DNA from: a virus
Direction: 5' to 3' (one strand)
Length of the DNA stretch: 64,000 nucleotides
Virus record (IMG/VR): IMGVR_UViG_3300025141_016305
Coordinates: 111,012 to 175,011 of that record
Of this stretch, positions 43,785-63,819 are shown piece after piece. The notes under the pieces are model-generated. The model worked only from the letters and a program-made list of their open reading frames with translations. It did no database searches and had not been told where the DNA came from. Made by a program: the position numbers and the translations under genes. How positions within the stretch are numbered: the first letter of the stretch is position 1; each line of letters opens with the position of its first letter.

Positions 43785-44978
43785 CTAGCGTGATTTAAGT
43801 GTTTTGATGTGTTCTAGGGCAGTTTGTAGCAGGTCTTTATTTAATTGAAAAATTTGTCTCTCCCGGTTAGGGCCGCCTATTTTAGTTTTGACAAGGCCTA
43901 ATTCTTTCAATACATCCACCATTCGGGCAGCCCGATTATAACCTATACTTAATTTTTTTTGCAAGAACCCATGGATTCCTCCAAGGGTGGGTGGAGATTG
44001 TTTTTTAGGATACTTAATAAGAACATGTAATGCATCAAGAAATCGAGGGTCTTGTATAGCTACTCGAATCAAATCATCGCTAAGTAAAGTGTCTCTGGCT
44101 TTTGGGCTTCTTCTAGGAGGGTTTTCATATGCTCTAGGAATCTCATCTGGAATGAAATCCAAAGTGTCGTCTTTTCCAATATTTGCATCTCTTTCTTTTA
44201 CTTTCTGTCTGACAAAATTTTGTGCATCCAAAAATCTTTCATGAACTGTTTTTGGCAATTCTTTCGCTACACTGTCAGTCATCCACTCGCTAGGTTTTCC
44301 TGCTTGGTCTAATAGACCCATTTGAGGTGTTGCAACTCGCTTGATCGGAGCTGATGGGAGAGGATCACTCATGCTACTTGGCAAAGGTGGAAAATCTACT
44401 TGTGTTTTCTTTTTTCCTAAACTAGATAATTTATCCAAAGACGTTGGTTCGTCTCCAATAGGAGGCCTCTGGTAAATCTGCCTATCTTTAACTTTTGATC
44501 CGGATTTTCTGATTGCTTCTCTGGTTTGTTTTTCGACAACATCTGTAACCTTATCTACCTGGTCGACATAATAAAATATTTTTTCGGCTACTTCGTTTTG
44601 TGGTGCTCTCACTAAAGCATCGGATGATTTTAAAGATTTGCTAGCTTTTTTTAATTTTAGGGCACCTTTTAGCGCTCGACCTGCTTGGCCAAGCAAAGGA
44701 AGGGCCGCGGCCAGTGATATAGCTAGATTGGCAGCTGCAAAAATGTTGCGATACTTCTCAAATGCTTCGATGGCAGGAGGGATGTCCGGATAAGCTGATA
44801 TCCCTGTTGGATCGAAAAGTCCTATAACCGTGCGTAAGTTTTCAAAATCTTCTTCTGATACTTTAACGTTTCCGAGATCTGGATCTGGGGAAGTGATCAC
44901 CCGGGCGGTGTCTGGATCTGTTATATCTATTTCTCTTAGATACTTTCTCCAGCTTTCCATTATGAGTTGATGTTTCAT
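43785..44978 (-). CDS. Protein with phage-type leader, hydrophobic segment and C-terminal FtsK-gamma winged helix
   Basis: MKHQLIMESWRKYLRE; DPRFLDAL...LQKKLSIGYNRAARMVDVLKELGLV. Confidence 0.75.
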   Translation of the reverse strand: MKHQLIMESWRKYLREIDITDPDTARVITSPDPDLGNVKVSEEDFENLRTVIGLFDPTGISAYPDIPPAIEAFEKYRNIFAAANLAISLAAALPLLGQAGRALKGALKLKKASKSLKSSDALVRAPQNEVAEKIFYYVDQVDKVTDVVEKQTREAIRKSGSKVKDRQIYQRPPIGDEPTSLDKLSSLGKKKTQVDFPPLPSSMSDPLPSAPIKRVATPQMGLLDQAGKPSEWMTDSVAKELPKTVHERFLDAQNFVRQKVKERDANIGKDDTLDFIPDEIPRAYENPPRRSPKARDTLLSDDLIRVAIQDPRFLDALHVLIKYPKKQSPPTLGGIHGFLQKKLSIGYNRAARMVDVLKELGLVKTKIGGPNRERQIFQLNKDLLQTALEHIKTLKSR

Positions 44979-46352: not shown

Positions 46353-49300
46353 CTATTCTGCTGCCTGAGTAAATTCACCCATTCCCGGGGCTGATGAAGC
46401 TTGAGTCGAGGCTTGATCATAAGCTGTATTTGTTGGCTCTTCCACATTAATGGCTGTTTCATTATCCCATTTATCAAAATAAAGTTTAACATTTGCAATG
46501 AGATAATCGTGATACATTTCCTGATCTTCAGGATTGTCTAGTTCTCCATAGTAATTAACAATAGACTTTTCAATTGCTGGGTAGATTCTTTCTGCTTTAT
46601 TTCTACCAGTAGTATCTTCCCCTTCTATGGAAGCCATAGTTTCTTCTTCAGGCTCATCTGGTAGTTCCTTTTCTGATCCGTCGTCAGCATCGATAAACAT
46701 TTCAGCATCGACACCTTGAACATCTACTCCAACCTCTTCACTTATAGTTACTTCTGCAAGTTGGTCTGCTCCAACGTCATTTAAGCGAACCGGCGTTAAA
46801 GTATCTTGAATCCATTTTACAATATGAGCCCTAAAGGAACTCTTCTGATCCTCATCAGTAGTTAAGGTTTTGTAGGCTTCTCTCATAGTTGCTAAAATAT
46901 TAGTATTTTTTAAGAGGTCTTTAAGAGTGTTAATTCCAGTATTATCATGCACATCAACAGTTGGATCTTCAACTTCGTTAAGGGAAGTTTCGAAAATAAT
47001 ATTTCTAAGTTGCATTCTTAATCTGTGTTCTTCTAACGCTCCAGCGATAACCTCTTCATGTTGAGAAGCCTTTTTATTAAAAAATTCCCTAAGCCCTATT
47101 CTTATCTTTTTTCGCAATCTTTTTTCTTCTTTGGTCATTTCATCATCCCTTTTGTTGTTTTTGATAGGTCCAGCATAACCAGCCACTGCGCCAGAAGACA
47201 TAGATGACATTTCTTCTATGTCTTCTTCTGCTAAAAATGCATTTGAAACGTTTTTCGTTCTATCTTTCCTGAACCCACCGCCATGTTTAGTTAAATCATG
47301 CCGGCCTTGATCTAAATAGTCCGAATGTGCTTTCGAAAGTCTTTTGCGCATATTCTTTTGAAATTTTCCACTGCCCGGGACGCCTTTTGGAGCAGTTTGC
47401 GCCCGGAACTCCTCAAATAGTTTTTCAGCTTCTTTTACGATAATTTCCTGTAGTGGGTCCAGTTCTGGCTCTTCGACTTGATCTTCAACAGATTGTGAAG
47501 AAACATCTGTATCTGCTGGGTTAAGGCCCATAATTCCCATAAATGCTAAAGCATCATCTCTGTTTGGTAAAAAGTGCTGCAGTAATTGTAGGCCGATGGG
47601 GTTTTCAGTTGCGAAATCCATTAGGGCTCGCATGTCACTTGCGTTAAATGCTGTATAATCTTTTTTCAGTTTAGATTTAATCTCTGGTAACTCTTCGATC
47701 ATTTTGATGTATTCAGAATCGTGAGTCACAAGTGGCACAAGACCAGATAAAAGCTCCAGATCTGGCCTAGACTTCTGAACCGAGGCTCTCAAGCCTTTAA
47801 ACCGTTTTGCATCATTTTCTTTGTCTCCAACCCCGACAATCACTTTTGCGTTAGGAGGTGCAATCAACAAATCTGTTGGATCCGCCGGCTTTGTTACATA
47901 ATCTATCGTTAAACTCACCGGTGTCACGCGGCCTTGGTCTGCCACTATTATTTGAGTCTTACTTCTTATAGGTGAATCCTCAAGCATGACAGTCCACATT
48001 TGTTTTGCCTGTTCTGCAGTAATAACTTTTCCAGATACAGGCAGAGGTCTAGAGTTCTTCATAGGGCTTGACACTATGATATATATTTTATCAGCCTCCG
48101 GTAAATCGCCCCGCGGGCCCCCCATCGCGATTATTTCAGCGGCCTGCCGATGGCCTTTGTGTGGTGGCTTAAAGGACCCGGGCAATATTGCAATCACTAG
48201 AGGCTCAGAACTGGCTTTTAAGACCTGTTCTCCTTCTCCGGCAGGCTCTATAGGGCCAAAGCGGTTAAATGGCCTCATACCGAGGATTTGATTGGCCGGA
48301 GCAAAGTTTCCAGTGAACTTGTAGGTAACACCATTCCACGCAAAGACGAACCCTTCAGATGGTGTATTTACACCGTCAATTGATTTAAGTTTAACCATCT
48401 GCTTTTCAAGCTCGGCTTTTGCTCTCTCGTTAGTAGATCCGCGAATGGCATCAATTTCCGTTTTAATTTTATCTTGTAAAAATTTTATTTGTTTTGGGTT
48501 ATCTCCAATAAATGCAGAATCAAAACCTTCCAGTGCCGCCGAAGAAAAGTCATGAAGAATACGTTGAAGATCTAAAGTGTAGTTAGCATAATTAAAAGTC
48601 TTTACAAATTGGCTAACTTCTCTCTTTAGTTCTATGGGCATTCCTTTTGTAATTTGGGGCAGCCCCGGATAATCTCCTATTTTCATAACTCTTTTTAAAA
48701 TCATGCGATTAACATCTTCTGTTAAGCCAAACTGTTCAATCTGGGGGGATACTTGTTCTGATACATAATGATTGATTGTATCAGAGTCATTAACTTGAAT
48801 ATCTTGCATAAGATTATTTATCGCGTCAATTGTTGGCTGTAAAGTATTGTTTATACTCTCTAAGCCTGCAGGGGCTAGTTTTCTTTGAGTGTGTGTCTCA
48901 ACAGAGAAAATCGTCGGATCATCCGTTGCTTTGCCTCTAACAACTCGCTCAAGTTTGTTGTAGTTTGGAGAAACATCTACTTTCTTGTTTTCTTCATCTG
49001 AAAGTTTTGGATCAAAATAAAAATGACCAAATTCATGAATAAGTAAAGTTTTCTTATCATATGGAATTACGTTGGTTGTTCCCGTTCTTCTAGGGTCATC
49101 CTCTTCAGCTTCAGGATTACCAGGATTCATCACTTCAACATTAAAATATATTTTGTGATCTTTGCCATTTCCAAAGATGTCCAGTAAAGTTTCCCTGTCT
49201 AGATCTTTAACTGCATTCTCAAAAGATAGCAAAGCTTCTACAAAACTGTATCTTAATGTTTGAGAAGGGTGCCCAGAAAAGAATTCGTCTAATTCTTCGG

Positions 49301-49535
49301 GGTCTAAGCCCCCAGCTTTTAATTGGCCTTTATTTCTAGCTGCAACTGCACGACCACTAGGTACGTTAAAGGAGATAGACAGATTCTGACCGTCTGTTTT
49401 TTCTGTGCCGCGCAGCTTGCCATCAGCCGCGGCCTGTAAAAGCTGCTTTAATTCACCAAAAGTCATTTCGCCATTATCATAGATATGGTTCATGTGCCCC
49501 GGTACGCCACCTTCTAAAAGAAGTTCTTTTTTCAT
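46353..49535 (-). CDS. Multidomain protein: ligase-like nucleotidyltransferase (DUF6267-like), HxGH cytidyltransferase-like domain and acidic C-terminal domain
   Basis: HMNHIYD, TEKTDGQN (KxDG), EGFVF..YKFTG; ILPGSFKPPHKGH. Confidence 0.7.
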   Translation of the reverse strand: MKKELLLEGGVPGHMNHIYDNGEMTFGELKQLLQAAADGKLRGTEKTDGQNLSISFNVPSGRAVAARNKGQLKAGGLDPEELDEFFSGHPSQTLRYSFVEALLSFENAVKDLDRETLLDIFGNGKDHKIYFNVEVMNPGNPEAEEDDPRRTGTTNVIPYDKKTLLIHEFGHFYFDPKLSDEENKKVDVSPNYNKLERVVRGKATDDPTIFSVETHTQRKLAPAGLESINNTLQPTIDAINNLMQDIQVNDSDTINHYVSEQVSPQIEQFGLTEDVNRMILKRVMKIGDYPGLPQITKGMPIELKREVSQFVKTFNYANYTLDLQRILHDFSSAALEGFDSAFIGDNPKQIKFLQDKIKTEIDAIRGSTNERAKAELEKQMVKLKSIDGVNTPSEGFVFAWNGVTYKFTGNFAPANQILGMRPFNRFGPIEPAGEGEQVLKASSEPLVIAILPGSFKPPHKGHRQAAEIIAMGGPRGDLPEADKIYIIVSSPMKNSRPLPVSGKVITAEQAKQMWTVMLEDSPIRSKTQIIVADQGRVTPVSLTIDYVTKPADPTDLLIAPPNAKVIVGVGDKENDAKRFKGLRASVQKSRPDLELLSGLVPLVTHDSEYIKMIEELPEIKSKLKKDYTAFNASDMRALMDFATENPIGLQLLQHFLPNRDDALAFMGIMGLNPADTDVSSQSVEDQVEEPELDPLQEIIVKEAEKLFEEFRAQTAPKGVPGSGKFQKNMRKRLSKAHSDYLDQGRHDLTKHGGGFRKDRTKNVSNAFLAEEDIEEMSSMSSGAVAGYAGPIKNNKRDDEMTKEEKRLRKKIRIGLREFFNKKASQHEEVIAGALEEHRLRMQLRNIIFETSLNEVEDPTVDVHDNTGINTLKDLLKNTNILATMREAYKTLTTDEDQKSSFRAHIVKWIQDTLTPVRLNDVGADQLAEVTISEEVGVDVQGVDAEMFIDADDGSEKELPDEPEEETMASIEGEDTTGRNKAERIYPAIEKSIVNYYGELDNPEDQEMYHDYLIANVKLYFDKWDNETAINVEEPTNTAYDQASTQASSAPGMGEFTQAAE

Positions 49536-49556
49536 GATATACCTCGAATTATAATA

Positions 49557-50555
49557 TTACTTGGCCCACTTCTTAACTAAGTCTTCATAAAGATTGGCAT
49601 TTCTTTTAGAAAATCTAGATTCATAAAGGTTTTCTTCCCTTTCAGGTGTCCCATTCAATTCACTCGAAAAGTTATCCTCCTCGATAGAATCTTCGGATTC
49701 ACCCTCTTCTGTTATAGAATCCTCTTCTTCCTCATCTAGTCTGCGTCCACCGGCATCTCGCCCGGCAACGCGGTCGGGAATATCAGTTTTGCTCTGCTCT
49801 TCTAAATCTTCTTCCTCTTCGAGAGTTTCTTTGTCTCCTCGATCGCCGTCAATAATCTCTAAGGCCGCGCGCATTACATCGACTAACTCTTGCTGGCTTA
49901 AACCACTGAGAGAAACGGGACTCTCCCCCTCTTTTGGCCCATCACCCCAGCCACTTTCTGCTTCTTCGGGAGATAATTCGCTCTCCCATCCTCCCGGGGT
50001 CTCAACAGAATCCGCCTCAGTTTCTCCGCCTCCTGGGGGCTCCTCTTCATCGGCATGTAATTCAGACACTTTCTGTTCTAAAATTTTTCGAATCATCTCT
50101 TTAAGAGATTCTTTCGTATTCTTGTCGGTCATTTGTTTGTTCTCCTTTAACAGTTTCGACTCTTGCATTGTAAATTTTTCATTGTCTTCCCAATCTCGAA
50201 AACACATGTTACCAATTAAATAGGCCTCTTCTTCCATTTTGCGCATGTGGGGGTTTTCCTGCGCGTATTTGTCAGTCATCTGGCCACATTTGTCTGGTGA
50301 TAGATCTCCTCTGAGATTTTGAGTGTGATGAACCAATTCGTGGGCAAAAGATCTTAAAATATCTTTTGGATGCCGCCCGGTAATAAAGATGGTTATAGCT
50401 TTGTTTTGGGGATCATAGTGAGCAGTACTTCCTAAGAATCCTTTTGAGTTTTCAGCATCTTGTTTTAGGAAGAGTCTAGGAGGATAATCAAAGCCCATTT
50501 TGTTTTTAGCAAAGTTGGTAAATTTGCCCAATAATGGCTTAAGTTGATCAATCAT
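49557..50555 (-). CDS. HExxH metallopeptidase-like N-domain with acidic C-terminal region
   Basis: TAHYDP, RHPKDILRSFAHELVHH.Q, MEEEA. Confidence 0.65.
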   Translation of the reverse strand: MIDQLKPLLGKFTNFAKNKMGFDYPPRLFLKQDAENSKGFLGSTAHYDPQNKAITIFITGRHPKDILRSFAHELVHHTQNLRGDLSPDKCGQMTDKYAQENPHMRKMEEEAYLIGNMCFRDWEDNEKFTMQESKLLKENKQMTDKNTKESLKEMIRKILEQKVSELHADEEEPPGGGETEADSVETPGGWESELSPEEAESGWGDGPKEGESPVSLSGLSQQELVDVMRAALEIIDGDRGDKETLEEEEDLEEQSKTDIPDRVAGRDAGGRRLDEEEEDSITEEGESEDSIEEDNFSSELNGTPEREENLYESRFSKRNANLYEDLVKKWAK

Positions 50556-50611
50556 TACAAAAAACCTCTAAAAATAAATAGTTTTATTAGCTTTGATCTC
50601 CAATAAAAGTT

Positions 50612-51619
50612 TTAAATGAACTCTTTATCGCCCGAAAACATGATTTCTATATCCGGGGTGATCTCTGTTTGAATTTTGGTTGTTAGCCAGAACTCCATGT
50701 CTGCTCTATTTTTGAATTGGTATAAGCTTGGTCCATCGAACGCGCACCAACTATCAACTTGTTCCAAAACATCCATTTTATTAAAAACAATATTATTTAT
50801 TCCGTTGATCCTCGAAGCCATTTTTAACATGTCAAAATCTAACCAGTTTATTTGCCGGGGCCGCCCGGTTGTGGAACCGAACTCTTCTCCAGCCTCTCTG
50901 ATATCTTCAAAAATAGGATCCTCTCCTTCGAATTTCTTGGCGCCAACATATGTTTCATAAATTTTAGCCACACCCCAAACATCTCTTATCGCTTTTGGGG
51001 GGACGCCATTTAAAATAGCAGAACCAACCGTACAGTGTGAGGAGGTAACATAAGGGTAATCGCCCCAATCAACATCTAGGCCAAATCCCTGTGCACCCTC
51101 AAATAGTATTTCTAATTCATCTGGATCATTATCTTCATAAAGTTCTTCGTACAAGTTAATTAAAAATTTCTGTAATCTTGGATCTTCAAATGCGCGCACT
51201 CCACGTCGCGCGTATTTATCCCTATAAGCGGGCCCGTTACCTCTTTTGGTTGTTCCTATTTCTTCATCTTTCTTGTCTTCTGCTCTGTGAAAATCCGTAA
51301 TAATATGAGCATTGGTGGATACAAATATTAAACCTTCTGTTGATATTCCGTTTTCTTCTAATTCTTCAATTTCTTTTAGGAATGTATCGACGTGGATTAC
51401 ACACCCAGGCCCAATAACTGATTTTATTCCATAAAAAACACCACAAGGAATATGGTGCGTTACAAACTTCTTACCATCATGAAAGATAGTATGCCCAGCA
51501 TTGCACCCTCCATTATATCTTATTACATGTGTATAATTATTGCCGCTACAAAGAGCGTGCGCAATCTTACCTTTTCCGCAGTCTCCATATTGCAAATCCA
51601 CAACAACATCAGCAATCAT
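50612..51619 (-). CDS. purA: Adenylosuccinate synthetase (short form)
   Basis: QYGDCGKGK, RYNGGCNAGHT, GTTKRGNGPAYRDK, EGAQG..LD, YPYVTSS, EFGSTTGRPR. Confidence 0.95.
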   Translation of the reverse strand: MIADVVVDLQYGDCGKGKIAHALCSGNNYTHVIRYNGGCNAGHTIFHDGKKFVTHHIPCGVFYGIKSVIGPGCVIHVDTFLKEIEELEENGISTEGLIFVSTNAHIITDFHRAEDKKDEEIGTTKRGNGPAYRDKYARRGVRAFEDPRLQKFLINLYEELYEDNDPDELEILFEGAQGFGLDVDWGDYPYVTSSHCTVGSAILNGVPPKAIRDVWGVAKIYETYVGAKKFEGEDPIFEDIREAGEEFGSTTGRPRQINWLDFDMLKMASRINGINNIVFNKMDVLEQVDSWCAFDGPSLYQFKNRADMEFWLTTKIQTEITPDIEIMFSGDKEFI

Positions 51620-51659
51620 ATTAACTCCTTTTGATTACTCTATGATTATACAGCAATGA

Positions 51660-51851
51660 TTACTTGTTTTTTAGTTTTCTTCTGGCTAATTGAGGGTTTC
51701 TTGCGACCATTTCTAAGTCGGTTTGCAAATCATTGATTCTTGAGGTGATTTCTATATACTGTGTCTTTCTTTTTTTTTCTTTTAAAAAAGAAAAAAAGGC
51801 AAAAACAATAAGACCTGTATAAAATAATATTTGATTAATATCGTATTCCAT
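51660..51851 (-). CDS. Small membrane protein
   Basis: 63 aa, one TM helix followed by a basic tail. Confidence 0.55.
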   Translation of the reverse strand: MEYDINQILFYTGLIVFAFFSFLKEKKRKTQYIEITSRINDLQTDLEMVARNPQLARRKLKNK

Positions 51852-51854
51852 TTT

Positions 51855-52133
51855 TTATTCCTTTTTTTCGTACTCTTCATCCCATGGTGCTGGTGCATCA
51901 TCATCCAATAACTTTTCCACTGAGGAGAGTGGATGATCATCATACTTTAAGTAATCTGAATCTTGATTATTCTTAAAATACTCATTGACTTCCTCTATAT
52001 TTTCATTTGTATTAGCATAAAGGGCTTTTAGATATTTTTTGGCTTTTTCTGCACTTGTAGAGCATCCAACTTTCTCCCCTAGCTTTTTACCTTTTTTCTT
52101 ATACACGCATTTTCCTTTTCTTTTATATGGCAT
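51855..52133 (-). CDS. Small protein with basic N-terminus
   Basis: MPYKRKGKCVYKK...GCSTSAEKAKKYLKALYAN. Confidence 0.6.
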   Translation of the reverse strand: MPYKRKGKCVYKKKGKKLGEKVGCSTSAEKAKKYLKALYANTNENIEEVNEYFKNNQDSDYLKYDDHPLSSVEKLLDDDAPAPWDEEYEKKE

Positions 52134-52143
52134 AGTTTTTATC

Positions 52144-52953
52144 CTATTTTAAATAATTATTCCAAACTTTGTTAAAATTTAAATTTAAATTATTGCTTGA
52201 TTCTAGTTTTATTGACATCATTTTATCATAAGATTGTATTTTTAATGTAGAAAGTTTATGAAGCAAATTTGCATTTCTAAGCATCTTAAAAGCTAGATTT
52301 TCTGGAGAATATATCCCCTCTTTGGATAATCCTGTCGTTCGCATTCTAGATATCTTTAATTTTAACTTCGAAGCATATCCATAGGCCTCTTTGAATTTTG
52401 ATTTTTGAAAAAGTTCCGATATGTGATCGATCGAATTCGAAATACCAAGTGCCTTCTTTTCAGTTGTATTTAAATCAATATCTACTTCTTCTGTTTTCGG
52501 CTCTTTGATCCACCTCTCTCTCATTAGGGACCAAATTCCCTTGCTCATATGATCCTCGTTGGTATCTTGAAAGTAAAGTTCAACTTCTTTACCGTCAATG
52601 GTTATATTGTGTGTTTTATTCCAATTTATTCTCGATTGATCGAGCATTCTTTTTACTAAATCATAGTTTTCATCAATTTTTGTAAAATCAAAAAGAATAT
52701 GAAGATCTATATCCGATAAGTCATGCCAATTGTATGAAGCAATAGAACCTGTAATGATAATATCATCAATATCCACATCTATTTCCATGGAATTGATGAT
52801 TTCATCAGCGATTTTCATTAATTTTCTTGCTACGATTGTATTGAGCCTGTTGTTTTGCCAAAATTTTGGATACAAATTTGGCCTTGGTTTAAGTCTAGCT
52901 AATTCCAAACCAGAAAAAGTATTAATTTTATCATGTATATTTAAATTAATCAT
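52144..52953 (-). CDS. Pol-beta superfamily nucleotidyltransferase
   Basis: ITGSIASYNW..LSDIDLH (GS..DxD), VELYFQD, ENLAFK.LR. Confidence 0.78.
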   Translation of the reverse strand: MINLNIHDKINTFSGLELARLKPRPNLYPKFWQNNRLNTIVARKLMKIADEIINSMEIDVDIDDIIITGSIASYNWHDLSDIDLHILFDFTKIDENYDLVKRMLDQSRINWNKTHNITIDGKEVELYFQDTNEDHMSKGIWSLMRERWIKEPKTEEVDIDLNTTEKKALGISNSIDHISELFQKSKFKEAYGYASKLKLKISRMRTTGLSKEGIYSPENLAFKMLRNANLLHKLSTLKIQSYDKMMSIKLESSNNLNLNFNKVWNNYLK

Positions 52954-53359
52954 TTTCTTTCTCCAACACCATTAATACTATTTTTCGATATTTATTCCTC
53001 TTATTCTTAATTTTTAAGCTTTTTTTACTCAAAAAAGTATAAGCTGTATGTTCTTTGCTTAATTTTATTGGTTGGGAATCGTATTTTGCCTTAAAAAAGT
53101 GTGTTTTTCCTATTTTTGTGACAAAAATAGGGTCTCTAACTGTCAAATTAGTTTCTTCTAAGACCTCCCGGGCAAGACCATCTAGGAGAGATTCATTTCT
53201 CTTGAGATGACCACCAGGCAGATCCCATTCTCCTGGGTATTTTTTATTTTTGGTCGATCTCTTAAGAAAAAGCGCTCTATCTTCCTCATCGACCAGAATT
53301 ATCTTTGCAACTGTTGATACATCGTCAGACATAATTTTTATTTTTACTCTTATAATCAT
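52946..53359 (-). CDS. NUDIX hydrolase
   Basis: WDLPGGHLKRNESLLDGLAREVLEETNL (Nudix box). Confidence 0.92.
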   Translation of the reverse strand: MIIRVKIKIMSDDVSTVAKIILVDEEDRALFLKRSTKNKKYPGEWDLPGGHLKRNESLLDGLAREVLEETNLTVRDPIFVTKIGKTHFFKAKYDSQPIKLSKEHTAYTFLSKKSLKIKNKRNKYRKIVLMVLEKEND

Positions 53360-53384
53360 AAACCAGTATTAACTAGTTGTTGTC

Positions 53385-53753
53385 CTATATATTCTCCGAT
53401 AGTAGTTTTCCGTCCTTATAGATTTGCATATAAGCAGTACATCCAGTCATCATAATTTTATCTTGCATTTCGAAAGCATCAATGATGTCATCAAAAACCA
53501 TGGTCGCTGCCTTACCATTATATGTTACAGTTTGATTCAAACGTATTCCGCATTCTTCTAAAAAATCATAATGATTTTTAACATCCCATATAACTAAAAC
53601 ATTATCAATTACATGAAAAGACTCAATCCACACATCCATCATATCTTCCAGGCTTACGGAATAAACATTAAAGCCTTTTCTTTTTGTTTTTTTGTTGTTT
53701 TCTTTTCTTGTCGTCATTTTGAGTGCCTGTCTGCTATTGACTGTGAGGCCCAA
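53385..53753 (-). CDS. Hypothetical protein
   Basis: ORF co-oriented; probable start MTTRK near 53717. Confidence 0.55.
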   Translation of the reverse strand: MGLTVNSRQALKMTTRKENNKKTKRKGFNVYSVSLEDMMDVWIESFHVIDNVLVIWDVKNHYDFLEECGIRLNQTVTYNGKAATMVFDDIIDAFEMQDKIMMTGCTAYMQIYKDGKLLSENI

Positions 53754-54199
53754 GCGTTAGGTTTTAAGCGGCAAGAGAGCCCATACCCTTGCACATACCC
53801 TCTCATCATGTCGGAAAGCCTAGACGTCCCGTTATTGGCGGAGAAAGGAGACACATCTAGATGTAATTCTATATCTTCACAATTAAAATCATAATCTGTC
53901 ATTAATTTTTCAGCTAACTCTACAGATCTTCTAGTTTCTTCTGTAATTCTTATTGTTAATTGATTGTGGATATTTTTTGGCACCTTTTCTCTGTAGAAGA
54001 AATACCTTCCACCATCAAGCCCGCCATGAAGACAAAGGGTGGTTGCAAAAGTAGTTTTCTTACCAGAAACGAAAGAATCAGAACCTATAAAGATGCGTGA
54101 CCCGCGGGTGACATAATCCCGGACCATTTCTATTACATCTAAAAAATTAATATTTTCGCTTGAACCTGTTATCCATTTTTTTTGATCTAAATCATCCAT
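53714..54199 (-). CDS. RNase H-like YkuK (DUF458) family protein
   Basis: IFIGSDS, RITEETRRS, ELHLDV, KPNAWASQSIADRHSK. Confidence 0.85.
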   Translation of the reverse strand: MDDLDQKKWITGSSENINFLDVIEMVRDYVTRGSRIFIGSDSFVSGKKTTFATTLCLHGGLDGGRYFFYREKVPKNIHNQLTIRITEETRRSVELAEKLMTDYDFNCEDIELHLDVSPFSANNGTSRLSDMMRGYVQGYGLSCRLKPNAWASQSIADRHSK

Positions 54200-54211
54200 A
54201 TAAAAATGTTA

Positions 54212-57200
54212 TCATACATTTTGTTGTTTTTCTCTAGCTTCTTTTAGTTTTCGGAGTATTTCTTCGCCAACAGATTGATTTTGACCAGCTAAGTCCAGGA
54301 CATCTTCAAAAAGTTCCAAATCTTGAACCAAAATTTTAGCAACCGTTATAGCTGTTTCCCGAGAGGTATCTCTTGTAAGGTCAATTGAAAATGATTTCCA
54401 TTCTTCTGTATAATCATCTTTTGGAGCTTCCTCTTCTCTAGCTGAGGAACCATACGGGTACGGTGTATAGCCTTTGCCACTGTTTTCTGTTAAAACTTCC
54501 ATAACTATTTTTTCTAAATCTTTTTTATTCATTTCTTGTATTCCTTGTTTAGTTTTTTTAACAATTGCTTTGTCGGCATCTGGTCTTATTTTTTTTGGTT
54601 CTGGCTTCATCGGCGCGCCTATTATTTTATTAGCATAATCTGGATCTTTTTTTGGATTTTTCTTTGACCGATATTTCTCGTAAAATTTTGTGCGATTTTG
54701 AAAATATGTGTCCAACATTGCTCTAGAATCCGGAAGAAGCGCACCTGCAACCACGCTTGCTCCTATCTTATTTGCGATTTCACCCCATCCTCCACCAACT
54801 CCTTGTTGATAAGCATATAATATGATTCTAGCTTTTTCGTCATCTGAGGCCACATCCCACATAGCTTTAGCATATTTGTTCTTTTTATTTTTTTCTGTTA
54901 TGTAATTCTGTACTAGTCCTAGATACTGTGGAATGCCATTAATAGATTTCATCGCGTTAAATGCATCAAAGTCTGGATCTACTTTGTCAGTAAGGTCTTG
55001 TCTCGCCCTGGCTTTGTGTTGGCCTAAACCCCAAGCCGATGCTGGAGAAACTGAGCGAGGATTCCAGGCGCTTTCTGCTTTTATTAACTTTAAAATAAAC
55101 TTTTTGCTTTTTAATGGCCCGGGCAAATCTTTCAAATCCTTAAATTTAGTGTTTTGAACGTATTGTTTTATTAACTTTATATTTTCATTTGAACTCTTTG
55201 GATCCAAAGTAAATTTTTTATTTTGAATAACTAAATCTAGTTGTCCCGGTGCACCGATTCTATACCGACCTCGAATTTCAGGTTTATCTAAGTTATAAGC
55301 CGCATATGCGTTCTGAGCATCTTCGGCTTTTTTTAGAGCGTACTTAACTCGTTCCTCTCCTTTTAAATTTTTTCCTGTTTCGTCAAAAAGAGCCTTCTTG
55401 TAAGCAGCATCGCCTACTTTTTTAAGATGTAACCGATCCGGCGCACCGATGGCCATAAATTCCGGATCATCTGGATCAAAGTCCATGTCGACAACATCTT
55501 CTGAATTGTTGCCTAGGTGATCACCGTCCCTATTTTCTTTTTGTTCAGGTAATGAAAATTTCATTTTTTTATAAACCTCCTTTTCTAGCGATGCATGCTT
55601 GTCTATTATATTGACAACTGAACCATCAACTATCTCCGATGTCTTTTTTGATGTATCATTCTTTCGTTTCGCCTTTGTTGCATCTCTTTGTAGTGTTTCA
55701 TTAATTATGTTTGGATCTTTTCTTCTTTTTAATAATTCTTTTTTTGTTAATAAAAAAGCTTGATCATCTGAAATGATCATCTCCAATACGACTGGCCGAA
55801 TATAATTTTGAAGAATTTTTTGAAAATCTTTTCCTTCAGCAAATAAAAATTCTGCCAAATTAAGATCTTTCTCATCATATCTTGGATCTTCTTTCATCGT
55901 CCTTTTGAAATATGAATAAAACTGAGAAGATGTTATGTAAGTGTTTTCATGAAAATCAGGGAAAAGATTAAAAATATTACCACCTTCTAAGACAGCATTA
56001 TCATCAATATTCTCGCTTATTTGGTTAGAATTAAGAATTATTTCTTCCATCAAGAGGCTGTAATATATTCGGGCAATAAATTTTTTCGTAATCAAAGACT
56101 TTCCCTCTCCGCCCCAGAAATTACTTAAGTCTCCCCGGCCAATTTCACTTAACAAAGGGTAGCCGTAAGCAAAAATACCACTACCAGCCGCGGCTTGCCT
56201 CCAAACACCCCCTTCTAACAGGGTTCTACTAAACCCAATTCTTAGAAGTTTGGACGTTAATTTACTAACGCCTTCTATAGACTTGGCGCCTGCTCTAGCT
56301 GCAGTTCTAGGAATAACAAAATTATCGCTTCGTGGAACTCCCCTGGGCCATGTGTATCCGGTTAGTTTGCCCTCCATTGCATCATCGAGGCTTCCATACA
56401 CCTTCTTTGTCAAGGCTTTTTCTAGTTTATCAGCATTTTTACGCATAAAATGCCCCTCTTCAACAAGATTTTCCGCAGATTTTTGCAAAGTTATAATGGT
56501 TGTATCAATATTTGATTTATTTGATCTAATAATTTCAGTCTCATCTTTAAGAGAATTTATTTTCTTTATAATAAAATCTTTGTTATTTTCTAATTCATTT
56601 ATAATTTCATCGCGTGCGGTGGCATTTGGTACGGGCAACCTAGGGGACCCAAGTCGAGGACGCATACCACTTCCAGTTCTTGCCGCGGCAAACGAATCAA
56701 GCATAGCTTCTTTTATTTCTTCAAATATTTCTTCACCACTCCGGATCGAAGATGGAGCCATATGGCTCTGGGAGTATTTTAAAACTACTGACCCTACTCT
56801 GTCACTAATTTCATTTTCAAGGGGTCTCCGCTGGGCTGCTCTTTGTGCTTTTCTGGACCCGGCACCCAGACCTATAGCTGGCTCAATGTCGGGAAATCGA
56901 TGAGACTTAAACATTATATCATTTAATTTGTTAAATAATTGTTTTTCATTTCTTTGTAACTTTTTAACACTTTTATTCAATGCTCGTACATATGGCTTCG
57001 ACGCCTTTGCTGCCATAGTGCCAATGCGCTCGACAAATATCTTTGAAAAGTTTCCAATATTTGTGTTGTTAGCTGTTTTGGCTAGCTTTCTTACTGATTC
57101 CGCCTCTCTCTTTAGCGTATTTACTATTGGAACCAATTCACTAGACACAAGATCTGCTAAATCGTCAAAATACTTAGCAGTAGTTTCGTTTAGTTTCTCG

Positions 57201-58678
57201 ACCATTAGCCCAGCTTGTTTTACAACTTCTTCTGGCAAGCCCATCTCATCAAGTTTTCCTACAAGCTCAGGGCTTGGATTGAACATCCTATCAGCGTTTC
57301 TGTTTATTCCGTTTATTTTTGCATCGTCTATAACTTTGCCAAACCAATTTACCAGATCTGTTTTCTGCTCAGAGCTAAGAGCACTGAATGGTCGACGAGA
57401 AAATCTATTATTTATCCAAGCTATGGTTGGTCGAATAATACCATCAATATCAATGCTTTGATGCACCGCTTTCCAGTCTATATTTTTTAAATTTTTATCT
57501 ATAGCCTTGCCCCATCGGCCACTTTTCAAAGCATCTGTAATAGATCCTCGAAAATCTTTGTTTTTTAAGAAATTATACGAAAAATAAGTCGGTGCTGAGA
57601 CTGTTGCGGCACCGACGCCTAAAATTGAACCTATCATGACTCTTTTTATTGCACAGCGCATGTCCCCGGGGGTTCTTCCGGACAAACCCTTTGCTAAATA
57701 CTCTAATGTAACAGCAGCACCAGTGAAAAGGCCACCCCTCAACAAAGCTTGAGATGTTTGCTGTACTCCAATCCCCCTGCCCGGGCGAGTTGCAAAAAAA
57801 GCAAAAACACTCATTCCTGATGCCCCTGTCGCTGCCCAATCACCATCCGTAGCATAAAAAGCGCCACCCCCGGCTGCAGCCCCAGCAACTGTGCCAAATA
57901 TCTTTGATGTAACTACATCACCGAGACCTGCAGCACCTCGAACTGGCAAAGATGTGCTGCTTCTATAAATTCTATTCAAATAAGACTGCAATCTATTAAA
58001 TAACCCGCCAGATTTTAAAGTACCGCCAGCAGCAGTAATTGCTGCCAAACCCAAGTTCGCCCCAGTTGAATATTGAAAGGCTGCAACCAGCGCATCAATA
58101 GCACCATGAACATTTTCAATTTTTCTATAATCATTATCACATGGCAATTCAACTTTAGCATTTCCACTAGCGGACATCCCGGTGAGTATATTAGGCAAAG
58201 CCAATTGCAATTTCTCTTCTAATTCTCTAATAATTTCTGGACGCTCTAATTCCCGCTGTTTTGGTGTTGGGCTGACTAGAGTAACGGGCACTATATTTTT
58301 TGATTTTTCACTTTGTTCTAAACCTTTTATTAAATCAAAAAGTGTTTTTCTACTATCTCCATAAACTATTGTAATCGATCTCAAGTCAGATTGAGATGTT
58401 TTTTGATTAAGCCATATATAATATTGACGCAATTGACCATTTATTGCTTCTATAGCTTGTGCTTCGCTAGAGCCACGAGGTATTATCTTTTTTAATTCTG
58501 TTTGCCTACCAGAAGAATCTTGAATAACTATAACTTTATTTAACCTATCAGATTTAGAATCTTGATTCATCTCTGGGAACCAATCAATCTCATCTTTTGT
58601 TACAATTTGCTCAAGAAAAGACTTAAGTATGTCTCCATATCTTTTTTTAGTTTCCTGTTCTAAAATTTTAGCTATCAT
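54212..58678 (-). CDS. 1488-aa protein with Gly/Ala hydrophobic segments and an SLT lytic transglycosylase domain; probable virion ejection protein
   Basis: IKAESAWNPRSVSPASAWGLGQ (catalytic ES, GLxQ), AYQQG; hydrophobic Gly-rich region at aa ~190-370. Confidence 0.75.
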   Translation of the reverse strand: MIAKILEQETKKRYGDILKSFLEQIVTKDEIDWFPEMNQDSKSDRLNKVIVIQDSSGRQTELKKIIPRGSSEAQAIEAINGQLRQYYIWLNQKTSQSDLRSITIVYGDSRKTLFDLIKGLEQSEKSKNIVPVTLVSPTPKQRELERPEIIRELEEKLQLALPNILTGMSASGNAKVELPCDNDYRKIENVHGAIDALVAAFQYSTGANLGLAAITAAGGTLKSGGLFNRLQSYLNRIYRSSTSLPVRGAAGLGDVVTSKIFGTVAGAAAGGGAFYATDGDWAATGASGMSVFAFFATRPGRGIGVQQTSQALLRGGLFTGAAVTLEYLAKGLSGRTPGDMRCAIKRVMIGSILGVGAATVSAPTYFSYNFLKNKDFRGSITDALKSGRWGKAIDKNLKNIDWKAVHQSIDIDGIIRPTIAWINNRFSRRPFSALSSEQKTDLVNWFGKVIDDAKINGINRNADRMFNPSPELVGKLDEMGLPEEVVKQAGLMVEKLNETTAKYFDDLADLVSSELVPIVNTLKREAESVRKLAKTANNTNIGNFSKIFVERIGTMAAKASKPYVRALNKSVKKLQRNEKQLFNKLNDIMFKSHRFPDIEPAIGLGAGSRKAQRAAQRRPLENEISDRVGSVVLKYSQSHMAPSSIRSGEEIFEEIKEAMLDSFAAARTGSGMRPRLGSPRLPVPNATARDEIINELENNKDFIIKKINSLKDETEIIRSNKSNIDTTIITLQKSAENLVEEGHFMRKNADKLEKALTKKVYGSLDDAMEGKLTGYTWPRGVPRSDNFVIPRTAARAGAKSIEGVSKLTSKLLRIGFSRTLLEGGVWRQAAAGSGIFAYGYPLLSEIGRGDLSNFWGGEGKSLITKKFIARIYYSLLMEEIILNSNQISENIDDNAVLEGGNIFNLFPDFHENTYITSSQFYSYFKRTMKEDPRYDEKDLNLAEFLFAEGKDFQKILQNYIRPVVLEMIISDDQAFLLTKKELLKRRKDPNIINETLQRDATKAKRKNDTSKKTSEIVDGSVVNIIDKHASLEKEVYKKMKFSLPEQKENRDGDHLGNNSEDVVDMDFDPDDPEFMAIGAPDRLHLKKVGDAAYKKALFDETGKNLKGEERVKYALKKAEDAQNAYAAYNLDKPEIRGRYRIGAPGQLDLVIQNKKFTLDPKSSNENIKLIKQYVQNTKFKDLKDLPGPLKSKKFILKLIKAESAWNPRSVSPASAWGLGQHKARARQDLTDKVDPDFDAFNAMKSINGIPQYLGLVQNYITEKNKKNKYAKAMWDVASDDEKARIILYAYQQGVGGGWGEIANKIGASVVAGALLPDSRAMLDTYFQNRTKFYEKYRSKKNPKKDPDYANKIIGAPMKPEPKKIRPDADKAIVKKTKQGIQEMNKKDLEKIVMEVLTENSGKGYTPYPYGSSAREEEAPKDDYTEEWKSFSIDLTRDTSRETAITVAKILVQDLELFEDVLDLAGQNQSVGEEILRKLKEAREKQQNV

Positions 58679-61682: not shown

Positions 61683-61889
61683 TTATTCTTGACCCCAATC
61701 ACAGTCGCAAGGACTACAACTGCAAAAATCACAGTAATTTCCATAATTTTCCGTGATATATTCATCAATTTTTTTAATAACCTCTTCAAAGTGTTCCACA
61801 CTAAGCGTCATTGACATTTCAACTAAGTTTGACTTTGCTTCCCACGGAGTCATGTTGCCTTTTTCGAGACCGCTACATATAAAACACAT
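61683..61889 (-). CDS. Small Cys-rich (putative Zn-binding) protein
   Basis: MCFIC ... YCDFCSCSPCDCDWG. Confidence 0.6.
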   Translation of the reverse strand: MCFICSGLEKGNMTPWEAKSNLVEMSMTLSVEHFEEVIKKIDEYITENYGNYCDFCSCSPCDCDWGQE

Positions 61890-63705: not shown

Positions 63706-63819
63706 TGTTTTCCCCGATTTTGAATAAGAGTGATGTAATAAATAGTGTTTTATTCGAGCAAACCTTCGAAGAACCGCGTTTTGCGCGCAAATTTTTTATT
63801 TTTTCGGTATTTTTTTCTT

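What the first reader, a model, noticed from the sequence alone, without database searches (positions are those of the whole stretch)
46353..58678. Three giant ORFs contain SD-preceded in-frame internal starts: nested 'cargo + carrier' genes
Seen: in the 332-aa ORF, AAGGAG lies 9 nt before an internal ATG at 50132 (M142; 191-aa product MTDKNTKESLKEMIRKIL). In the 1488-aa ORF, AAGGA lies ~9 nt before ATG 54532 (M1383; 106-aa product MNKKDLEKIVMEVLTE). In the 1060-aa ORF, AAAGGGA precedes ATG 47138 (M800; 261-aa product MTKEEKRLRKKIR). Each internal start falls at a domain boundary and is followed by a leader-like helix. Inference: enzymatic cargo has been fused upstream of small head proteins, so each gene yields a long cargo isoform and a short carrier isoform.
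Basis: partly seen in the sequence, partly recalled or inferred. Interest (0 to 1): 0.7.

Follow-up and report, generated by a model that had tools for sequence, protein, structure and literature searches.

The report
Nested in-frame genes in marine phage
Three long genes of an uncultured marine T4-like phage each carry a second start site in the same reading frame; related phages keep these start signals, so each gene probably makes both a long fusion protein and its short tail part alone, a known viral coding trick seen here in new protein families.

Summary
All three internal ATGs, their Shine-Dalgarno (SD)-like motifs and the product lengths are as stated. Within the window this is not beyond chance: 3 SD-led internal ATGs were seen against 1.2 expected. 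Relatives make the case.

- **1488-aa ORF.** The last 106 aa form a conserved module. Of 65 distinct relatives, 11 have it as a stand-alone gene and 50 have it fused to N-parts that BLAST cannot relate. 41 of the 50 fused forms keep a boundary start, and 38 of those 41 keep an SD. Only 6% of other in-frame ATGs in the same ORFs have one.
- **1060-aa ORF.** The last 261 aa are a separate, translationally coupled gene in 63 of 83 relatives. Fusion is confined mainly to the window's clade. One re-split member of that clade uses the same start.
- **332-aa ORF.** The Met is invariant, and AAGGAG persists even where the encoded amino acids change. A promoter-like CTATTTA motif lies about 30 nt upstream of the Met in three distant relatives and 84 nt upstream in the window.

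The best reading is genuine nested in-frame genes of the lambda C/Nu3, herpesvirus UL26/UL26.5 and two-polypeptide endolysin kind. No protein data exist. The "head protein carrier" role is not shown. The families are new, but the mechanism is known. Earlier notes of this scan describe the same kind of nested start on other DNA.

The parts
54212..58678 (-). 1488-aa ORF: a unique 1382-aa N-part joined in frame to a conserved 106-aa C-terminal module
   Evidence: The N-part has no BLAST relative among 79 loci or among 86 long proteins that carry the module.
54896..55105 (-). SLT lytic transglycosylase domain (residues 1192-1261 of the 1488-aa ORF)
   Evidence: Pfam PF01464, E 6.9e-05, 22.8 bits against a cut-off of 21.3. 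One relative carries Peptidase_M23 at the equivalent place.
54542..54546 (-). SD-like AAGGA, 9 nt upstream of ATG 54532
   Evidence: In 42 distinct fused relatives, position -12 is G in 36, although 39 different heptapeptides are encoded there.
54215..54532 (-). Nested 106-aa module starting at M1383: leader helix, disordered linker, four-helix bundle
   Evidence: 157 representative homologs, always with the module at the C-terminus; Met at the aligned position in 112 of 144. AlphaFold model: helix 3-16, bundle 39-104 with pLDDT above 90. Homodimer model scores 0.54 against a best control of 0.01. Stand-alone genes exist in 11 loci.
49557..50555 (-). 332-aa ORF: HExxH zincin-like N-domain (residues 1-141) plus an acidic, mostly disordered C-part (142-332)
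   Evidence: H72, E73, H76, H77 and M142 are invariant in 8 homologs.
50142..50147 (-). SD AAGGAG, 9 nt upstream of ATG 50132
   Evidence: AAGGAG is kept in every fused relative with DNA in hand. In L007 the amino acids are K-G-D instead of K-E-N and the motif sits in a different codon phase.
49560..50132 (-). Nested 191-aa product starting at M142
50217..50223 (-). Promoter-like CTATTTA inside the 332-aa ORF, 84 nt upstream of ATG 50132
   Evidence: In the genome the motif occurs 31 times on the gene strand and 8 on the other; 16 of the 31 lie within 60 nt upstream of gene starts. In L007, L009 and L180 the motif sits about 30 nt upstream of the internal ATG.
46353..49535 (-). 1060-aa ORF: ligase/nucleotidyltransferase-like N-part (1-799) fused to a 261-aa module
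47146..47152 (-). Weak SD-like AAAGGGA, 7 nt upstream of ATG 47138
   Evidence: The other members of the fused clade have AAGGA, GAGGA or AGGAG at 7-11 nt.
46356..47138 (-). Nested 261-aa module starting at M800
   Evidence: It aligns from its residue 1 to residue 1 of the stand-alone 267-aa gene in L007 (39% identity, E 2e-48). It is also homologous to the 268-aa gene in L097 (68% best-segment identity; that alignment begins at residue 5). 533 homologs of 143-457 aa. 63 of 83 loci are split.
47313..47319 (-). Promoter-like CTATTTA inside the 1060-aa ORF, 174 nt upstream of ATG 47138
   Evidence: The motif is kept in L011 and L097 although the preceding codon changes (gaC, gtC, acC).
55562..55564 (-).
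   Evidence: It cannot be tested because the N-part has no relatives.

Best explanation
The three ORFs are in-frame nested genes. Each consists of an upstream part joined to a C-terminal module that keeps its own ribosome-binding site and start codon. One mRNA or locus would then yield the long fusion protein and the module alone.

For the 332-aa and 1060-aa ORFs, an internal promoter-like CTATTTA motif may additionally give a separate transcript for the short form.

Shown:
- The modules are separate genes in many relatives (two of the three families).
- Fusion and splitting have happened repeatedly.
- The internal start signals are kept in fused forms at the nucleotide level even where the encoded amino acids differ.

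Inferred:
- Both products are made.
- Long and short forms associate through the shared module, as the predicted self-association of the 106-aa module suggests. The start strengths would then set the ratio of enzyme-bearing to plain subunits.

The 106-aa module has a leader like those at the N-termini of several neighbouring proteins, in a phage with a T4 gp21-type prohead protease. Delivery into the prohead is therefore a reasonable but untested guess for that family only.
For: **1488-aa family**
- 65 distinct loci: 50 fused, 11 stand-alone, 4 undetermined.
- 41 of 50 fused forms keep ATG or GTG at the boundary. 38 of those 41 have an SD of at least a 4-mer, against 40 of 655 other in-frame ATGs in the same ORFs.
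- The SD moves with the ATG where the Met is shifted by 3-6 codons.
- Position -12 is G in 36 of 42 forms across 39 different heptapeptides.
- Stand-alone genes sit at the same syntenic position.
- N-parts fall into 22 clusters that BLAST cannot relate.
- The homodimer model scores 0.54 against a best control of 0.01. That mark was reached by 20 of 30 solved homodimers and 1 of 23 monomers. The runs agree in at least 89% of contacts and pLDDT is at least 63.

**1060-aa family**
- 63 split, 10 fused and 10 undetermined among 83 loci.
- The start of the stand-alone gene aligns with M800.
- Fused forms make one clade, with the split L097 nested inside it, plus two separate fusions.
- In L097 the module is translated from the same start, overlapping the upstream gene by 29 nt in another frame.
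- All members of the fused clade keep ATG or TTG with an SD.

**332-aa family**
- M142 is invariant.
- AAGGAG is kept through a change of both amino acids and codon phase.
- CTATTTA, SD and ATG occur together inside the ORF in L007, L009 and L180.
- The short form L179 has neither signal.
Against: - There is no proteomic, ribosome-profiling or transcript-end evidence.
- Within the window the SD enrichment is not significant.
- The window's own SD at M800 is weak (AAGGG).
- 9 of 50 fused relatives of the 1488-aa ORF have lost the boundary start, so it is dispensable in some lineages.
- The host is unknown. The nearest cultured capsid relatives infect Flavobacterium, Microcystis and Rhodothermus. 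I recall from general knowledge, not checked here, that Bacteroidota make little use of SD pairing. Only a third of this phage's own starts carry an SD.
- Related sequences share ancestry, so the counts overstate the number of independent events.
- No stand-alone form of the 191-aa part was found beyond a 26-residue match.
Confidence: 0.68

Rival explanations
1. The signals are relics of gene fusion. The internal SD and ATG are leftovers of formerly separate genes and are no longer used, so only the long protein is made.
For: Split forms are the majority state for the 261-aa module. The window's SD at M800 is degraded to AAGGG. 9 of 50 fused relatives of the 1488-aa ORF have lost the start without losing the module.
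Against: The signals persist across fused lineages whose module identity is only 40-73% and whose upstream protein sequence cannot be aligned. The SD is re-created in other codon phases and with other amino acids. The re-split L097, found on 24 or more contigs, uses the retained start.
Confidence: 0.15
2. The module is released by proteolysis, not by internal initiation. The T4-type prohead protease would cut the long protein near the boundary, and the conserved residues would be a cleavage and recognition site.
For: The genome encodes a gp21-type protease (PF03420, E 1.6e-32). The window has I-Q-E just before M1383 and L-T-E after the leader helix, both of the L/I-x-E type. All 144 modules have [LIVMF]-x-E within residues 10-20.
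Against: Glutamate at position -1 occurs in only 34 of 139 representatives; Ile, Thr and Gln are also common. Conservation lies in the nucleotides of the SD, not in any peptide. [LIVMF]-x-E is a permissive motif in a Glu-rich helix. This rival does not explain the Met, the stand-alone genes or the other two families. It could act in addition to internal initiation.
Confidence: 0.1
3. The SD-like sequence acts as a translational pause at a domain boundary, and the Met is conserved for structural reasons. No second product is made.
For: The sites lie exactly at domain boundaries. Short homologs of the 332-aa family keep the Met without an SD.
Against: Stand-alone genes start at exactly this Met. 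GTG or TTG replaces ATG in several fused forms. A promoter-like motif accompanies the SD and ATG in the 332-aa family.
Confidence: 0.04
4. The pattern is due to chance or to assembly artefacts. The ORFs would be falsely joined by sequencing errors and the motifs would be coincidental.
For: The window's own statistics are not significant. Two long-read assemblies show broken N-parts that are probably indel errors.
Against: The fused architecture recurs in dozens of independent assemblies from different samples.
Confidence: 0.03

Closest known systems
Lambda C/Nu3 and herpesvirus UL26/UL26.5: a protease gene with an in-frame nested scaffold gene (Mu I/Z is a further example recalled from general knowledge, not checked here)
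   Same: The two products share frame and stop codon. The short product starts at an internal site with its own signals; UL26.5 even has its own promoter inside UL26 (PMC4498786; Shaw and Murialdo 1980, as cited in PMC8508860). An enzyme is tethered to an assembly module that is also made alone. The 332-aa ORF (HExxH domain plus acidic C-part, with internal CTATTTA, SD and ATG) is the closest parallel.
   Different: There is no sequence or fold relation to those proteases or scaffolds. This phage already has a gp21-type protease. The N-parts here are a transglycosylase-bearing giant protein, a ligase/nucleotidyltransferase-like protein and a small zincin-like domain. A scaffold role is not shown.
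Two-polypeptide phage endolysins encoded by one gene with an in-frame internal start (for example LysP7951, a 1:5 heteromer; PMC9430671)
   Same: A peptidoglycan-cleaving domain (SLT here, M23 in a relative) lies directly upstream of a nested C-terminal module that is predicted to self-associate. The idea that long and short forms multimerise is the same.
   Different: The long protein has 1488 residues with hydrophobic Gly/Ala-rich stretches, which does not look like a lysis endolysin. The module is a four-helix bundle with no known wall-binding family. Those examples come from phages of Gram-positive hosts.
T4 capsid targeting sequence on internal proteins (IPI-III, Alt)
   Same: A short N-terminal amphipathic leader is shared by otherwise unrelated proteins, in a phage with a gp21-type protease. 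The T4 leader directs proteins into the scaffolding core (PMC3012670). The leader after M1383 matches the genome's N-terminal leader motif.
   Different: In the long isoform the leader is internal, 1382 residues from the N-terminus. Packaging and cleavage are untested. The leaders after M142 and M800 fit poorly or not at all.
Rosetta-stone fusions of translationally coupled neighbouring genes
   Same: The 1060-aa ORF joins two genes that are adjacent, overlapping and coupled in 63 of 83 relatives.
   Different: The ancestral start and SD are retained within the fused clade, and one lineage has re-split. This suggests the boundary start still works.

Membership tests
In-frame nested gene pair (lambda C/Nu3, HSV UL26/UL26.5 type) | The short product shares reading frame and stop codon with the long ORF | tested here: met
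In-frame nested gene pair (lambda C/Nu3, HSV UL26/UL26.5 type) | The internal start codon has its own ribosome-binding site, conserved among relatives | tested here: met
   38 of 41 boundary starts against 6% background; the fused clade of the 261-aa module; AAGGAG kept through amino-acid and phase changes.
In-frame nested gene pair (lambda C/Nu3, HSV UL26/UL26.5 type) | Two polypeptides are actually produced | not testable with these tools
   No proteomic or ribosome-profiling data exist.
In-frame nested gene pair (lambda C/Nu3, HSV UL26/UL26.5 type) | The short form has a separate internal promoter (UL26.5 type) | tested here: inconclusive
   A gene-start-associated CTATTTA motif lies inside the 332-aa and 1060-aa ORFs and is conserved in relatives. 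None lies in the 1488-aa ORF. Promoter function is not shown.
In-frame nested gene pair (lambda C/Nu3, HSV UL26/UL26.5 type) | The N-part is the head maturation protease and the C-part is the scaffold | tested here: not met
   The prohead protease is a separate gp21-type gene. The N-parts are SLT-bearing, ligase/nucleotidyltransferase-like and zincin-like. No scaffold family matched.
Two-polypeptide endolysins with an internal start | A peptidoglycan hydrolase catalytic domain lies upstream of the internal start | tested here: met
   SLT at residues 1192-1261 of the 1488-aa ORF, just over the Pfam cut-off; Peptidase_M23 in relative L018.
Two-polypeptide endolysins with an internal start | The nested product is a cell-wall-binding domain that multimerises with the full-length enzyme | tested here: inconclusive
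   The homodimer model passes, 0.54 against 0.01. There is no wall-binding family or fold match.
T4-type capsid-targeted internal proteins | A short amphipathic leader containing an L/I-x-E site, shared by unrelated proteins | tested here: met
   The leader motif occurs 7 times in the genome: 6 at N-termini and 1 after M1383. [LIVMF]-x-E is present in 144 of 144 modules, but this is a permissive motif.
T4-type capsid-targeted internal proteins | A gp21-type prohead protease is present | tested here: met
   PF03420, 109 bits; gp23-type capsid protein.
T4-type capsid-targeted internal proteins | The protein is packaged in the head and processed | not testable with these tools
   This lineage is uncultured. 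The modules are absent from GenBank phages.

The most novel reading that the evidence does not exclude
The 106-aa module would be a general loading adaptor of an uncultured clade of marine T4-like phages. It is a self-associating four-helix bundle with its own capsid-targeting-type leader, and it occupies a fixed genomic slot. Diverse giant cargo genes, some with SLT or M23 wall-cutting domains, are repeatedly inserted upstream of it and fused in frame. The retained internal start would supply free adaptor in excess, so that a few cargo-bearing copies co-assemble into the prohead core and are later injected. This would be a natural, evolvable cargo-loading system. The 332-aa and 1060-aa ORFs would use the same coding logic for other complexes.
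Probability: 0.25. Interest if true: 0.75.

Novelty: new variant of a known kind. Interest (0 to 1): 0.55.

Why it matters
Standard annotation lists these as three single giant or odd ORFs and misses the short products. The comparative data show a coding strategy, fusion with a retained internal start, that recurs in hundreds of uncultured marine phage contigs and in protein families with no Pfam, PHROG or GenBank phage match.

The 106-aa module stays 40-73% identical while its upstream partners are unrelated. It is therefore a clear candidate for a modular adaptor and a handle for identifying virion-delivered proteins in T4-like phages that cannot be grown.

The repeated fusion and splitting of the 261-aa module also gives a natural series for studying how nested genes arise and are kept.

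Tried and rejected
- tblastn of the whole 1488-aa protein, the 106-aa module and the 261-aa module against GenBank phages found nothing.
- A pattern scan of viral contigs with the whole 1488-aa protein found no relative.
- PHROGs and Pfam gave nothing for the modules.
- PDB sequence searches gave nothing for the N-part of the 1060-aa ORF or for the 332-aa ORF.
- A Foldseek PDB search with the module model found no match.
- The short hits P0002, P0004 and P0008 first looked like stand-alone forms of the 191-aa part. P0002 and P0008 are contig-end truncations of fused genes; for P0002 the frame is open upstream and P0008 begins 16 nt from its contig end. P0004 sits on a 530-bp contig and was not checked.
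- The long-read contigs L095 and L096 show the N-part of the 1060-aa homolog broken at odd places. I treated these as probable indel errors and did not count them.
- A conserved protease site at position -1 was rejected as the main explanation, because Glu is there in only about a quarter of homologs.
- A T4-type TATAAATA late promoter is not associated with gene starts in this genome.
- One mistaken call used too short a protein.

Full report
**Setting**

The window is the last 64 kb of a single 175,011-bp virus record, estimated 96% complete. Nearly all genes lie on the minus strand. The record encodes a T4 gp21-type prohead protease (PF03420, 109 bits) and a gp23-type major capsid protein. 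The nearest cultured capsid relatives are Flavobacterium phage immuto (47% identity), Microcystis phage Mel-JY01 and Rhodothermus phage RM378. This is therefore an uncultured, distant T4-like marine phage whose host is unknown.

**The observation**

The three ORFs and the three internal ATGs are exactly as reported:
- AAGGAG, 9 nt, ATG 50132 (M142 of 332).
- AAGGA, 9 nt, ATG 54532 (M1383 of 1488).
- AAAGGGA, 7 nt, ATG 47138 (M800 of 1060).

In this window 23 of 70 true starts carry an SD of at least a 4-mer. Among 316 internal in-frame ATGs, 23 do, and only 6 have a 5-mer or longer. The three ORFs contain 63 internal ATGs, so about 1.2 SD-led ones are expected. The window alone therefore does not prove anything, and the third SD is weak.

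A stronger signal inside the genome is the leader motif [KR]xx[LIVMW]xx[ILVM][ILVM]xE[EV][ILMV]. It occurs seven times in the genome's ORFs of 40 aa or more. Six are at residues 3-9 of a protein, and the seventh lies directly after M1383.

**The 1488-aa ORF**

An exhaustive profile-free search with the last 106 residues found 157 representative proteins. The module is always at the C-terminus of proteins between about 100 and 1757 aa long. The alignment starts at the module's first residue in most of them. Met occupies the aligned position in 112 of 144.

I fetched 79 loci, of which 65 are distinct:
- 50 are fused, with at least 100 open codons upstream.
- 11 are stand-alone genes, with a stop within 30 codons and real intergenic spacers.
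- 4 are undetermined.

The stand-alone genes occupy the same slot as in the window, upstream of a conserved 161-aa gene and a NUDIX gene.

Among the fused forms, 41 of 50 keep ATG or GTG at the boundary, and 38 of those 41 have an SD of at least a 4-mer (31 have a 5-mer or longer). Among 655 other in-frame ATGs in the same ORFs the figures are 40 (6%) and 14 (2%).

Where the Met is displaced by 3-6 codons, the SD is displaced with it (L046, L047, L050, L055, L056, L060; in L089 the start is GTG). Position -12 is G in 36 of 42 distinct fused forms, although 39 different heptapeptides are encoded there. The conservation is thus in the nucleotides, not in the peptide.

The upstream parts differ sharply from the module:
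- 59 N-parts fall into 22 clusters that BLAST cannot relate.
- The window's 1382-aa N-part matches none of the loci and none of 86 long proteins that carry the module.
- It carries an SLT domain just before the module. One relative carries Peptidase_M23 at the equivalent place.

The module's model has a leader helix (3-16), a disordered linker and a confident four-helix bundle (39-104). It has no PDB fold match. A two-copy model supports self-association. The score is 0.54 against a best control of 0.01. That mark was reached by 20 of 30 solved homodimers and 1 of 23 monomers. The runs agree in at least 89% of contacts, and pLDDT is at least 63. This supports binding but does not show it.

**The 1060-aa ORF**

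The last 261 residues align from residue 1 to residue 1 of a stand-alone 267-aa gene in the distant relative L007 (39% identity, E 2e-48). That gene follows a 719-aa homolog of the N-part with a 4-nt overlap.

In L097 the N-part homolog has 834 aa (51% identity). The 268-aa module gene (68% identity) overlaps it by 29 nt in another frame.

The module family is large: 533 proteins of 143-457 aa and 321 viral-contig relatives. Of 83 loci, 63 are split, 10 fused and 10 undetermined.

A quick maximum-likelihood tree places nine fused forms, including the window, in one clade, with the split L097 nested inside it. Two more fusions lie elsewhere. Well-supported branches force at least three changes of state.

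Every member of the fused clade keeps ATG or TTG with AAGGA, GAGGA or AGGAG 7-11 nt upstream. The window's AAGGG is the weakest of these. L097 is carried by 24 or more contigs and translates the module from this same start, so the start is usable.

**The 332-aa ORF**

All homologs of the 191-aa part that I found are fused. Apparent short forms are contig-end truncations.

M142 and the HExxHH residues are invariant in eight homologs. AAGGAG is kept in every fused form with DNA in hand. In L007 the residues are K-G-D instead of K-E-N, and the motif sits in another codon phase.

The AlphaFold model has a confident N-domain (1-139). Its weak Foldseek matches are all zincin metallopeptidases: IrrE/PprI, SprT, selecase and Wss1. 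The C-part is mostly disordered.

The N-domain family has 513 members of 77-247 aa. Complete short forms of about 164 aa keep the Met but have neither an SD nor a promoter-like motif. They are followed by a coupled 208-aa gene whose first 30 residues match the residues just after the internal Met of fused forms. This is only a 26-residue alignment (E 2e-5), so it is a weak hint of a split form.

**A promoter-like motif**

CTATTTA occurs 31 times on the gene strand and 8 times on the other. 16 of the 31 lie within 60 nt upstream of gene starts, in a genome that is 97% coding.

Two of the intragenic copies lie upstream of the proposed internal starts:
- 50223, which is 84 nt before ATG 50132.
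- 47319, which is 174 nt before ATG 47138.

The second copy is conserved in L011 and L097 although the preceding codon changes (gaC, gtC, acC).

In L007, L009 and L180, the homolog of the 332-aa ORF has ACTATTTAT about 30 nt before the internal ATG, followed by AAGGAG. This is the spacing typical of real gene starts in those loci. None lies inside the 1488-aa ORF. Promoter activity is inferred, not shown.

**Interpretation**

The most economical reading is that all three are genuine nested in-frame genes, with confidence about 0.68. The module is expressed both alone and as the C-terminus of a longer protein.

This is the coding logic of:
- lambda C/Nu3,
- herpesvirus UL26/UL26.5, which includes an internal promoter (PMC4498786), and
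- two-polypeptide endolysins, where full-length and C-terminal products form heteromers (PMC9430671).

That family combines a conserved, self-associating module, a leader of the type found on neighbouring proteins, unrelated large N-parts, and a gp21-type protease in the genome. T4 uses a capsid targeting sequence to load diverse internal proteins (PMC3012670). Head localisation is untested, however.

The 1060-aa case looks more like a fusion of two coupled partner genes, and the 332-aa case resembles a protease-plus-acidic-tail arrangement. Rival readings remain possible, especially for M800 in the window itself: relic signals (0.15), proteolytic release alone (0.10), a pause site (0.04), and chance or artefact (0.03).

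**Caveats**

- The host's use of SD pairing is unknown.
- Relatives are not independent samples.
- The tree is a quick search with a midpoint root.

Noticed in passing
window 55562-55564 (ATG, M1039 of the 1488-aa ORF): This is the strongest SD-led internal ATG in the three ORFs: AAGGAGGT, then 10 nt, then ATG. It would give a 450-aa product holding the SLT domain and the module.
   Followed up: partly
whole genome; window copies at 63745, 61640, 61007, 50581, 50223, 47319, 45919, 45276, 40943, 32647: CTATTTA, often aCTATTTAt, is strand-biased (31 against 8). Half the copies lie within 60 nt upstream of gene starts, so it looks like this phage group's (late?) promoter element. T4's TATAAATA shows no such association. 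The copy at 61007 inside the 722-aa ORF is unexplained.
   Followed up: partly
window 61683-61889 (68-aa Cys-rich ORF) and L045:4708-4923: In L045 the homolog of this small Cys-rich gene lies directly upstream of the stand-alone module. In the window, the 722-aa ORF, the 254-aa ORF and the 1382-aa N-part lie between them. The slot upstream of the module therefore behaves as a hypervariable insertion site.
   Followed up: partly
window 47139-49535 (N-part of the 1060-aa ORF): It contains a KxDG motif (EKTDGQN), as in ligases and capping enzymes, and a PPHKGH motif of the HxGH nucleotidyltransferase type. Relatives give weak CTP_transf_like hits. There is no PDB sequence relative.
   Followed up: partly
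genome C1:72713-73324 (L094:10714-11325): Two further small genes (56 and 144 aa) start with the same leader motif. They lie between a gp46/SbcC-like gene and replication genes, far from the window's cluster.
   Followed up: no
window 43785-44978: A 397-aa protein has a leader-like N-terminus and a stand-alone FtsK gamma domain (PF09397, E 2.1e-09) but no ATPase domain.
   Followed up: no
L095 and L096 (long-read assemblies): Homologs of the N-part of the 1060-aa ORF are broken into pieces at non-homologous places. These are probably indel errors of the assemblies and were not counted as split forms.
   Followed up: partly
window 50612-51619 and L097:1-386: A short adenylosuccinate synthetase gene (purA-like) lies upstream of the neighbouring pair of homologs of the 332-aa and 1060-aa ORFs in the window and in L097 (with an extra 615-aa gene in between in L097). 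That pair also stays adjacent in the distant relatives L007 and L180, which suggests a functional module.
   Followed up: no
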